30,093 nt of DNA from a virus (taxonomy: Duplodnaviria > Heunggongvirae > Uroviricota > Caudoviricetes). The notes below the pieces were generated by a model, which saw only the letters and a program-made list of their open reading frames with translations, had not been told where the DNA came from and did not search any database. The stretch spans positions 1 through 30,093 of the IMG/VR virus record IMGVR_UViG_2562617113_000015. One strand, written 5' to 3'. Shown one piece after another: positions 5,407 through 7,705 of this stretch. The position numbers and the translations under genes were made by a program. Every line of letters starts with the position of its first letter. Positions within the stretch are counted from its first letter, which is position 1.

Positions 5407-6096
5407 CTAACCAAATCTGTTTATGTTGAATGGTACTGATGAGATCACTTTAGACTGGATATAAAGCAGAGCTAACCCCTCTTTTTCGATGCTCCATGGT
5501 TGATAATTGGGGTTATCAGATAACACCATGATTTTGCTTCCAATTTTTTGAAGCCTTTTCACGTAGCATTCTCCATCAAAACAAAATGCATAAATACCAT
5601 CGCCATCAAAATAAGTTACTGTCTTATCAAGAAAAAGAAGGTCGCCAGGTGAGATTGTGGGAGCCATACTGTCTCCTCTGGCGTTACCTATTTCTATATT
5701 TTTGAATGCCCGATTTCCAACAAGACGTCGGGCATATTCAGGATCAAGTTCTATTGAGCGCACTACATCTATCAAGTCACCACGGACATGAGTTCCATCA
5801 CCGCAACTAAACTCAACATCAAGGACATTAAACACGACGCTATCTGTTCTTGTCTGGTGTTTCTCTTGCGAGGAAAAGGTTGGTGAGGAGTCTTCACCTA
5901 AGAACCAGGATTGTGGATAACCGCTAATCTCTGATAAATGCGCGAGCTTATCACTCCGTGGAAATGTTTTTCCTGTTGTCCAGTACTGCACTGATTGCGC
6001 ACTCACACCTAACTTGCGGGCCAGTTGAGCCTGAGTCCATCCTTTTGCTTTCAGCATCGCGGCTATTCGATTTTCCGTGTTTTTGACGTTCTTCAT
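5407..6096 (-). CDS. cI: CI-like prophage repressor (229 aa): N-terminal HTH plus C-terminal S24 (LexA-like) autopeptidase domain
   Basis: N-terminal HTH (GWTQAQLARKLGVSAQSVQYW); C-terminal G-D-S-M serine motif and a downstream lysine, as in LexA/CI; divergent from the cro-like gene. Confidence 0.9.
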   Translation of the reverse strand: MKNVKNTENRIAAMLKAKGWTQAQLARKLGVSAQSVQYWTTGKTFPRSDKLAHLSEISGYPQSWFLGEDSSPTFSSQEKHQTRTDSVVFNVLDVEFSCGDGTHVRGDLIDVVRSIELDPEYARRLVGNRAFKNIEIGNARGDSMAPTISPGDLLFLDKTVTYFDGDGIYAFCFDGECYVKRLQKIGSKIMVLSDNPNYQPWSIEKEGLALLYIQSKVISSVPFNINRFG

Positions 6097-6229: not shown

Positions 6230-6530
6230 ATGAAAGGAAATGATTACGACGTACTTCGCGCATTAATTGCGCAAAATGCCATTGCACGAAACCTTGGTGT
6301 AACTCCGCAAGCGGTGAATCAGTGGTTTTCCAAAAAACACAATTCCTGCTCGTTTTGTTTTACGCGTATGTGAAGTAGTTGCATGGAAGGTCACGCCACA
6401 TGGCTTAAGGCCAGATCTTTATCCTCACCCTGAAGATGGAATTCCTGATTCGTTACGCAAAATTTCAAATCCAAGCCTAGCGCGCACGGAAGATGGGCAG
6501 AGTGATTCATCAGAAATGTCCACGCGATGA
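6230..6530 (+). pseudogene. cro: Cro/YdaS-like regulator, frame-disrupted at an A6 run (6332-6337)
   Basis: The ATG frame gives an HTH (LGVTPQAVNQWFSK) and stops at 6371-6373 after ...HNSCSFCFTRM; the +1 frame continues TIPARFVLRVCEVVAWKVTPHGLRPDLYPHPEDG... to a stop at 6528-6530, matching the C-terminal pattern of YdaS-type Cro proteins. Confidence 0.55.
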
Positions 6531-6606: not shown

Positions 6607-7374
6607 ATGATGATCAATAAACAAAAAATAGTCAACCCTGAAAACTTGCCAGTTATTGAGTGGCAGGGAGTACGTGTAGTTACCACCGAAACGTTGGCGG
6701 CGGGATATGGAACAACGCCAATCCGTATACAACAGAACTACATTCGAAACGAAGATCGTTTCGTTGAGGGTAAACACTTTTTCAAAATCAGCGGTGATGA
6801 GCTGAAATCTTTCCGACTATCTTTTAGCGAGTCGGTTAATAAACATACAACATCACTTGTCCTCTGGACAGAACGCGGCGCTGCCCGCATGTCAAAAATC
6901 GTCGATACAGACGAGGCCTGGTCGTTCTTCGAAAAAATGGAGCAGGCGTATTTTCGTAAAGCAACGCCTTCTTCAAACACTATTCCAGACTTTGACGATC
7001 CGATCGCTGCTGCTGAAGCGTGGATTGAAGCCAAAAAATCCGAACGCCTTGCTCTCGGGTATGCAGAGCGTCAGGCTCGCTACATCAGCAAACTCGAAAG
7101 CCATCTCGCCGATGGCATCACTCCTGTGCAGTTCTGCAAACAACTCAACGGTGTAAACACTCGTCAGATTAATGCGTTCCTTGAAGAGCGTAACTGGCTG
7201 TATGACGACCGTCCGGAGGCTATGTATCCGCGCTGGCGTGTAAAAGCGTATGCACGTGACCAATACCTGACTGAGCGTTCTGGGCAGGTTGAGCAGGAAA
7301 ACGGGGAAATGCGCGAGATTTTCAAACCACTCCTGAAGAAAAAAGGTGCCCCTGGTTATATCGCCATTATCTGA
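6607..7374 (+). CDS. Antirepressor-family protein (255 aa), ORF6N-like N-terminal domain plus Ant-like C-terminal domain
   Basis: AAGGGG RBS; motif LWTERGAARM shared with the 13225..13713 gene (ILWTERGAARHAKM); C-terminal region resembles phage antirepressor C-terminal domains. Confidence 0.8.
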   Translation: MMINKQKIVNPENLPVIEWQGVRVVTTETLAAGYGTTPIRIQQNYIRNEDRFVEGKHFFKISGDELKSFRLSFSESVNKHTTSLVLWTERGAARMSKIVDTDEAWSFFEKMEQAYFRKATPSSNTIPDFDDPIAAAEAWIEAKKSERLALGYAERQARYISKLESHLADGITPVQFCKQLNGVNTRQINAFLEERNWLYDDRPEAMYPRWRVKAYARDQYLTERSGQVEQENGEMREIFKPLLKKKGAPGYIAII

Positions 7375-7459
7375 ACGGTGAACTACCGATGAAGAAAACA
7401 TGGGATGGGCTGTTTACCCATAACACTGAGCTCGCGAATCTTTTACAGGAGAACAAATA

Positions 7460-7669
7460 ATGCAAACCAAGACGTGTGTAACTGGTGATGTCGATCTGAA
7501 ACCTTGCCCGTTCTGCGGAAATCCGGAAGTACAACTCATTGAGGTGAAATATTTTCTGGATGGCGATGATGGTTATTACGTCGCATGTACTTGCTGTAAC
7601 GCAAACCAGATCCCTGATTCGAAAGAACGTGCTGTTCATGACTGGAATCAGCGCGAAAACGCGGATTGA
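7460..7669 (+). CDS. lar: Lar-family restriction-alleviation-like zinc-ribbon protein (69 aa)
   Basis: CPFCG ... CTCC cysteine pairs and size fit the Lar family as remembered; AGGAG RBS. Confidence 0.6.
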   Translation: MQTKTCVTGDVDLKPCPFCGNPEVQLIEVKYFLDGDDGYYVACTCCNANQIPDSKERAVHDWNQRENAD

Positions 7670-7705
7670 TGGCGAGTAGGTACAAAATGATCCGCAACCA
7701 ACATA

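What the first reader, a model, noticed from the sequence alone, without database searches (positions are those of the whole stretch)
7460..7669. Lar-like restriction-alleviation gene in the early-right operon
A 69-aa zinc-ribbon protein with the CPFCG motif typical of Lar-family restriction alleviation proteins is placed early in the rightward operon. This is a likely counter-defence function directed at host restriction-modification.
Basis: established knowledge. Interest (0 to 1): 0.4.

Follow-up and report, generated by a model that had tools for sequence, protein, structure and literature searches.

The report
Lar-family zinc-ribbon gene in prophage
This is a real, intact, already-annotated Lar-family small zinc-ribbon gene in the early rightward operon of a lambdoid E. 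coli prophage; the family assignment holds, but its anti-restriction role rests only on homology to one distant relative whose function is disputed.

Summary
Window 7460..7669 (+) is a 69-aa ORF with a Shine-Dalgarno site, a KPCPFCG knuckle, a second CxxC and a C-terminal WNQR helix. It passes the curated cut-offs of Pfam PF14354 (43.1 vs 28.6 bits) and TIGR03655 (49.6 vs 39.6) and matches PHROG 599. It is under purifying selection (dN/dS about 0.12). It lies downstream of cI/cro and upstream of the O/DnaC/DnaB genes.

The exact protein is already public as "Lar family restriction alleviation protein", on at least 1000 contigs.

The functional claim is only inferred. The protein is 33% identical to Rac Lar, the only tested member, which Guo et al. 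2014 re-described as a DNase toxin (RalR) with an sRNA antitoxin. The window protein fails the RalR equivalog cut-off (26 vs 113 bits), has no RalA-like complementary RNA, and is unrelated to lambda Ral.

New context:
- This Lar subfamily is almost always coupled to an upstream modular Bro-N/KilA-N/ORF6N/Rha antirepressor-like gene: 14 of 15 loci, against 1 of 68 for distant Lar relatives.
- In E. coli it lies directly upstream of an isrK/C4 antisense-RNA plus Rha module.
- In this window the cro-like and ORF6N genes each carry a private 1-bp frameshift.

This is an ordinary finding of low interest.

The parts
7460..7669 (+). lar-like CDS, 69 aa, Lar family (PF14354 / TIGR03655 / PHROG 599)
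7447..7451 (+). Shine-Dalgarno AGGAG, 8 nt before the lar ATG
   Evidence: read from the sequence
7505..7516 (+). Codons for the first zinc knuckle C16-P-F-C19
   Evidence: invariant in alignments A1, A2 and A5
7586..7597 (+). Codons for the second zinc knuckle C43-T-C-C46 (aligns to CNGC of Rac Lar)
7643..7654 (+). Codons for W62-N63-Q64-R65 in the C-terminal helix, the most conserved non-Cys motif of the family
6607..7460 (+). Upstream ORF6N + KilAC(ANT)-type antirepressor/Roi-like gene. In intact relatives it is 284-286 aa and its TAA stop overlaps the lar ATG (TAATG). Here a private 1-bp deletion (G missing at about 7347) ends it at 7374 (255 aa).
6230..6529 (+). cro-like gene, frameshifted by a private 1-bp insertion (extra C at about 6330). 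The reading frame gives 47 aa instead of about 99.
5407..6096 (-). cI-like repressor (HTH + S24 peptidase), divergent from the rightward operon
7741..7817 (+). isrK-like RNA / a1-b1 target region with its own intrinsic terminator (stem 7795-7812 plus T-run), 72 nt after the lar stop
7842..7929 (+). C4-type antisense RNA (P1/P7 immI type)
   Evidence: 80.1 bits against a gathering score of 45
7984..8547 (+). Rha-family regulator. The probable true start is ATG 7984, after the second GATTGGCGTCC target. The longer ORF from 7666 runs through the RNA genes.

Best explanation
The ORF encodes a genuine member of the Lar family, a ~60-aa four-cysteine zinc ribbon followed by a short helix. It sits in the early rightward transcription unit of a lambdoid E. 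coli prophage. The most likely role, by homology with Rac Lar, is to modulate the host type IA restriction-modification enzyme (EcoKI-like), lowering restriction and/or speeding de novo methylation of unmodified phage DNA. Expression would be early, from the cro-side promoter, and upstream of the first strong intrinsic terminator, which lies in isrK at 7795-7817. Shown here: the ORF, family membership, conserved Zn ligands and WNxR helix, purifying selection, and gene order. Inferred: the biochemical target, the effect on restriction, and the timing of expression.
Against: No experiment exists on this protein or its subfamily. It is only 33% identical to the single tested member and fails that member's equivalog model (26.2 vs 113 bits). 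Guo et al. [quoted passage not shown] The genomic context differs from Rac lar and lambda ral, which are both in the leftward operon near recombination genes. The tight coupling to antirepressor-like genes suggests a possible different role. A 90%-similar Lar homologue in phage Bas63 was conditionally important in strains without intact type I systems (PMC11482910).
Confidence: 0.5

Rival explanations
1. The protein is a partner or accessory subunit of the upstream modular antirepressor-like regulator (Bro-N/KilA-N/ORF6N/Rha N-domain plus C-domain). It would act in the lysis-lysogeny switch or host take-over rather than on restriction enzymes. The two genes form a co-translated cassette.
For: In 14 of 15 IMG/VR loci tested (Lar identity 49-100%), plus phage Fostie (44%), the gene directly upstream is such a regulator, with abutting or overlapping stop and start codons. 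This holds across four different N-domains and at least two C-domain types. In distant Lar-family loci the same neighbour is seen in only 1 of 68. In E. coli, lar at 97-99% identity pairs with either ORF6N or KilA-N. In Salmonella L006-8 a Rha gene directly follows lar. The mosaic break against phage PhiR49_2 places ORF6N and lar in one exchanged segment.
Against: Adjacency may only reflect a shared accessory-gene slot in the early operon. Salmonella loci L003-5 and IMG/VR loci L023/24 lack the neighbour. Rac Lar works without one. No paper in the held library links the two. No interaction was or could be tested here.
Confidence: 0.2
2. The protein is a RalR-like type I toxin, a small non-specific DNase kept in check by an antisense sRNA. 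Any restriction alleviation would be an indirect consequence of DNA damage.
For: The founding family member was reported as a Ca/Mg-dependent non-specific DNase whose toxicity depends on the region encoding the conserved helix (PMC4041452). There is a weak hit to the RalR equivalog model NF007260 (E 1e-5).
Against: The equivalog score is 26.2 against a cut-off of 113. No RalA-like complement was found: k=11 matches to the lar mRNA within +/-3 kb number 1 against 0.69 expected, while the same script recovers the 11-nt ralR/RalA repeat in Rac. No inverted repeat has an arm inside lar, and Rfam finds no RNA overlapping lar. The predicted fold is an Elf1-like zinc ribbon with no nuclease-fold match. 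The gene sits inside a lytic early operon rather than as a stand-alone TA locus.
Confidence: 0.1
3. The protein is a counter-defence factor against a system other than type I R-M, for example type IV restriction.
For: The PhageMaP preprint reports a Lar homologue in Bas63 that is less essential in DH10B than in strains which lack intact type I but carry type IV systems (PMC11482910).
Against: This is a single indirect observation on a different subfamily. Nothing in this window bears on it.
Confidence: 0.1

Closest known systems
Lar (= RalR, b1348) of the Rac cryptic prophage of E. coli K-12
   Same: Same Pfam/TIGRFAM family. Similar size (64 vs 69 aa). KPCPFCG and CxxC zinc knuckles and the C-terminal W-N-x-R helix all align. 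Both are lambdoid prophage accessory genes.
   Different: Only 33% identical, and fails the RalR equivalog model. Rac lar lies in the leftward operon between recT and xis with the RalA sRNA next to it. The window gene lies in the rightward operon between an ORF6N antirepressor-like gene and an isrK/C4-Rha module, has no RalA-like RNA, and the prophage has no recET/exo-bet genes in its left arm.
Ral of phage lambda (Pfam PF11058)
   Same: A small (66 aa) early phage protein. Lar was described as its functional analogue, giving restriction alleviation and modification enhancement of type IA enzymes (PMC3177214, PMC12707154).
   Different: No sequence relationship: BLASTP E 4.6, and no PF11058 hit for the window protein, whereas lambda Ral scores 162 bits. 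Ral has no four-Cys ribbon of this type and lies in the pL operon.
Elf1-type zinc ribbon (eukaryotic/archaeal transcription elongation factor 1)
   Different: The score is marginal and Foldseek finds nothing significant. There is no evidence of common function. This is a fold resemblance only.
P1/P7 immI module (C4 antisense RNA - icd - ant) and the Gifsy-1 isrK locus
   Same: The RNAs immediately downstream of lar match Rfam isrK and C4 with full-length alignments. The C4 target motif GATTGGCGTCC is repeated on both sides of C4, ahead of an antirepressor-type (Rha) gene.
   Different: lar is not part of the described P1 module. The lar-C4 adjacency is seen only in close E. coli relatives, not in Salmonella or other relatives.

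Membership tests
Lar family (Pfam PF14354 Lar_restr_allev / TIGR03655 anti_R_Lar / PHROG 599) | Profile score above the curated family cut-off | tested here: met
   PF14354 43.1 bits vs 28.6; TIGR03655 49.6 vs 39.6; PHROG 599 E 5e-14. Positive control: Rac Lar scores 53.5 bits on PF14354.
Lar family (Pfam PF14354 Lar_restr_allev / TIGR03655 anti_R_Lar / PHROG 599) | Four-cysteine zinc ribbon: (L)KPCPFCG knuckle plus a second CxxC about 24-27 residues later | tested here: met
   C16, C19, C43 and C46 are invariant in A1/A2 and invariant or >=90% in the 53-sequence family alignment A5. They align to C9, C12, C30 and C33 of Rac Lar. The AF2 model shows ribbon strands flanking both knuckles.
Lar family (Pfam PF14354 Lar_restr_allev / TIGR03655 anti_R_Lar / PHROG 599) | C-terminal helix carrying the A-x(3)-W-N-x-R motif | tested here: met
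   A58, W62, N63 and R65 are invariant including Rac Lar. N63 is invariant and W62 and R65 are >=90% family-wide. Helix at residues 55-63 in the model.
Lar family (Pfam PF14354 Lar_restr_allev / TIGR03655 anti_R_Lar / PHROG 599) | Alleviates restriction and enhances modification by type IA R-M (EcoKI) in vivo | not testable with these tools
   Known only for Rac Lar (King & Murray 1995, as cited in PMC3177214) and contradicted by PMC4041452.
RalR/RalA type I toxin-antitoxin (NCBIfam NF007260 equivalog) | Equivalog-level sequence match to RalR | tested here: not met
   26.2 bits against a cut-off of 113; 33% identity.
RalR/RalA type I toxin-antitoxin (NCBIfam NF007260 equivalog) | Neighbouring small RNA with about 16 nt (11 contiguous) complementarity to the toxin mRNA | tested here: not met
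   The k-mer scan of the lar mRNA against +/-3 kb and the whole window gives chance-level matches only (k=11: 1 vs 0.69 expected; k=12: 0 nearby). The same scan finds the ralR/RalA repeat in Rac. No inverted-repeat arm lies in lar and no Rfam hit overlaps lar.
RalR/RalA type I toxin-antitoxin (NCBIfam NF007260 equivalog) | Non-specific DNase activity and toxicity on over-expression | not testable with these tools
   The structure model shows no nuclease-fold match. This is weak negative evidence only.
Lambda Ral family (Pfam PF11058) | Sequence similarity to lambda Ral | tested here: not met
   BLASTP E 4.6. No PF11058 hit at E<=10, while lambda Ral scores 162.5 bits.

The most novel reading that the evidence does not exclude
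This enterobacterial Lar subfamily may not be a stand-alone anti-restriction protein. It may instead be the obligate small zinc-ribbon partner of the domain-shuffled Bro-N/KilA-N/ORF6N/Rha 'antirepressor-like' regulators. The two would be co-translated as a cassette and act together, either in the lysis-lysogeny switch or as a two-component counter-defence. That would give a first functional handle both on these very common but poorly understood phage regulators and on the Lar fold.
Probability: 0.2. Interest if true: 0.5.

Novelty: already known. Interest (0 to 1): 0.15.

Why it matters
As it stands the finding matters little.

Two points are still useful. First, the name overstates the knowledge. 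The family label rests on one protein whose activity is disputed (restriction alleviation versus DNase toxin), and this subfamily is distant from it and lives in a different context. Second, the subfamily-specific coupling to modular antirepressor-like genes is a cheap, testable lead to what these small zinc ribbons really do.

Tried and rejected
1. RalA-like antitoxin RNA. I looked for inverted repeats and ran a k-mer scan for direct or inverted complementarity with a Rac positive control. Nothing was above chance, so this was rejected.
3. Fusion partners of the Lar domain as functional clues. I found only tandem Lar repeats and two Cys-rich false positives (PKD-like and HYR-like proteins), and no catalytic fusions. 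The literature mentions one DnaE1 fusion (PMC3919608).
4. Whether the lar-isrK/C4 adjacency is a conserved unit. It is present only in close E. coli relatives (L001, L011, L021, L022) and absent in Salmonella and other relatives, so I rejected it as a general feature.
5. Whether the antirepressor coupling is family-wide. It is not: 1 of 68 distant loci.
6. A second anti-restriction or Ral-like gene, or a recombination module, in the left arm. None was found.

Full report
**1. Observation.**

Window 7460..7669 (+) is an ATG-to-TGA ORF of 69 codons. AGGAG lies at 7447-7451, 8 nt before the ATG. The product is MQTKTCVTGDVDLKPCPFCGNPEVQLIEVKYFLDGDDGYYVACTCCNANQIPDSKERAVHDWNQRENAD. The coordinates, length and motif are all confirmed.

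**2. Is it a real gene?**

Yes.
- The protein matches Pfam PF14354 Lar_restr_allev (43.1 bits, gathering score 28.6, E 5e-11).
- It matches PHROG 599 "Lar-like restriction alleviation protein" (E 5e-14).
- It matches TIGR03655 anti_R_Lar (49.6 bits, cut-off 39.6).
- An exhaustive phmmer search of 1.84 billion cluster representatives finds 643 relatives at E<=1e-3.
- Among diverged relatives dS is saturated while dN is 0.1-0.47. Among the 14 unsaturated pairs the median dN/dS is 0.12.
- The AlphaFold2 model (13-sequence alignment, mean pLDDT 82) shows strands 2-7, 24-31 and 37-43 around the two Cys knuckles and a helix at 55-63.

**3. Family membership.**

In a 53-sequence alignment of diverse single-domain relatives, C16, P17, C19, C43 and N63 are invariant. 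L13, K14, P15, F18, G20, C46, W62 and R65 are at least 90% conserved. The window protein has all of them.

I fetched Rac Lar from E. coli K-12 MG1655 (b1348, now annotated "endodeoxyribonuclease toxin RalR"). It aligns at 33% identity (E 1e-9) with all four Cys and W-N-x-R in register. It scores 53.5 bits on the same Pfam model.

Lambda Ral is a different family (PF11058, 162 bits) and has no similarity to the window protein (BLASTP E 4.6).

**4. How well known is it?**

The exact 69-aa sequence is in the public collections on at least 1000 contigs as [quoted passage not shown]. It equals the product annotated by PGAP in strain 2012C-4227 (WP_001193680.1). Seventeen of 5426 complete E. coli genomes carry the gene at 90% nucleotide identity or more, always on the chromosome. 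Only three records among 50,697 deposited phage genomes encode a relative, at 38-44% identity.

**5. Genomic context in the window.**

The window is a lambdoid E. coli prophage. The gene order is:
- integrase and excisionase at the left end;
- a leftward early arm with no recombination genes and no Ral;
- a cI-like HTH/S24 repressor at 5407..6096 (-);
- an intergenic region with repeated ACTTGAT/ATCAAGT operator-like motifs;
- then rightward: a cro-like gene (6230), an ORF6N + KilAC antirepressor/Roi-like gene (6607), lar (7460), an isrK-like RNA (7741..7817), a C4 antisense RNA (7842..7929), a Rha-family gene (to 8547), an O-like gene, a DnaC-like gene and DnaB.

The "early-right operon" placement is therefore correct.

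The first strong intrinsic terminator on this strand is the isrK terminator at 7795-7817. I infer that lar would be expressed with cro before any antitermination is needed.

Against the closest deposited phage, PhiR49_2, homology breaks at 6476 and resumes at 7697, 28 nt after the lar stop. That phage has Cro-Roi there and no lar. ORF6N and lar are thus one mosaic segment.

**6. Context in relatives.**

In Salmonella relatives (60-66% identical) the gene again lies between cro/cII-like genes and the replication genes.

I collected 29 IMG/VR loci with relatives of 49-100% identity. In nearly all of them the gene directly upstream abuts or overlaps the Lar reading frame. It is a 240-290-aa protein with one of four N-terminal domains: ORF6N, KilA-N, Bro-N or Rha. 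It also has one of at least two C-terminal domain types. By Pfam, 14 of the 15 loci tested were positive, and so was phage Fostie. In intact E. coli relatives the upstream stop overlaps the lar start (TAATG).

As a control, I examined the nearest upstream same-strand ORF in 68 loci of distant Lar-family members (26-45% identity). Only one was Bro-N/ANT. The others were typical early DNA-metabolism genes: five DNA methyltransferases, two RecT, and YqaJ, SSB, DnaB and a primase. The coupling to antirepressor-like genes is therefore specific to this subfamily.

The adjacency to isrK/C4 is narrower still. It is seen only in close E. coli relatives.

**7. Function and mechanism.**

Nothing here tests function. 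The name derives from Rac Lar. According to PMC3177214, removal of Lar enhanced EcoKI restriction, and Ral and Lar "are believed" to enhance de novo methyltransferase activity by an unknown mechanism. [quoted passage not shown]

Guo et al. 2014 (PMC4041452) reported instead that the same protein does not inhibit restriction-modification. They describe it as a non-specific DNase toxin neutralised by the RalA sRNA through a 16-nt complementarity.

The window protein is not a RalR equivalog (26.2 vs 113 bits). It also has no RalA-like partner. A k-mer scan that recovers the Rac ralR/RalA repeat finds only chance-level matches for lar. No inverted repeat touches lar, and no Rfam family overlaps it.

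A preprint reports that a Lar homologue of phage Bas63 matters in hosts without intact type I systems (PMC11482910).

My ranking is as follows.

| Reading | Confidence |
|---|---|
| Ral/Lar-type modulator of type IA R-M | about 0.5 |
| Partner of the upstream antirepressor-like regulator | about 0.2 |
| RalR-like DNase toxin | about 0.1 |
| Counter-defence against another system | about 0.1 |

**8. State of this copy.**

Two 1-bp indels lie just upstream of lar.
- An extra C at about 6330 truncates the cro-like gene to 47 aa.
- A missing G at about 7347 truncates the ORF6N/KilAC gene to 255 aa and uncouples its stop from the lar start.

The large structural and replication ORFs of the window are uninterrupted. 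These are therefore either private inactivating mutations, meaning a prophage locked in lysogeny, or local sequence errors. lar itself is intact and identical to the common allele.

**9. Verdict.**

The functional interpretation is plausible but unproven, and it rests on a disputed precedent. The finding is already known and of low interest. The only mildly new element is the conserved cassette with modular antirepressor-like genes.

Noticed in passing
window 7741..7817 and 7842..7929; second set at 12979..13174: Two isrK/a1b1 + C4 antisense-RNA modules (P1/P7 immI type) lie in one prophage. The first sits between lar and a Rha gene. The second sits between a Q-like antiterminator (12556..12951, PF06530) and a second ORF6N gene (13225..13713). 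The C4 target motif GATTGGCGTCC is repeated at 7765-7775 and 7933-7943, and the C4 loop ACGCCAACCC is complementary to it. A similar pair (GATTGGCGTC) lies in the second module, at about 13015-13024 and 13178-13187.
   Followed up: partly
window 7666..8547 (+): The 293-aa ORF that PGAP calls 'Rha family' or 'ash family protein' in relatives is Pfam Phage_ASH over residues 22-116. That stretch is exactly the translation of the isrK and C4 RNA genes. Rha covers residues 127-216. The Ash 'protein family' here looks like a translated RNA gene. The real Rha start is probably ATG 7984, preceded by a tiny ATG-TGG-TGA ORF at 7945.
   Followed up: partly
window ~6330 (cro-like gene from 6230): A private 1-bp insertion (TTTTCCAAAAAA against TTTTCAAAAAA in relatives) frameshifts the cro-like gene, giving 47 aa instead of about 99. 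It is absent from 15 related loci.
   Followed up: yes
window ~7347 (ORF6N/KilAC gene 6607..7374): A private 1-bp deletion (GGTGCC-CCTGG against GGTGCCGCCTGG) truncates the antirepressor/Roi-like gene by about 29 aa and removes its stop/start overlap with lar. It is absent from 17 related loci.
   Followed up: yes
IMG/VR loci L025-L039 (for example L028 2794..3204, L027 2710..3177): In many relatives the Lar domain is the C-terminal half of a 131-159-aa ORF, with an N-terminal extension of 65-90 aa of unknown nature. It is not clear whether this is a real extension or an overlap with the upstream gene in another frame.
   Followed up: no
protein hits P0020-P0051 and others: A large share of Lar-family relatives are tandem duplications or triplications of the zinc-ribbon domain (2-4 copies, 110-430 aa) with no other domain.
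   Followed up: partly
L022 3903..4460: One E. coli-type relative carries two consecutive isrK + C4 sets downstream of lar, separated by about 180 nt.
   Followed up: no
L001 16404..16672: The related prophage in strain 2012C-4227 carries STnc100 and AgvB (anti-GcvB) sRNA matches next to a tRNA cluster in its late-regulatory region. The corresponding part of the window was not among the Rfam hits.
   Followed up: no
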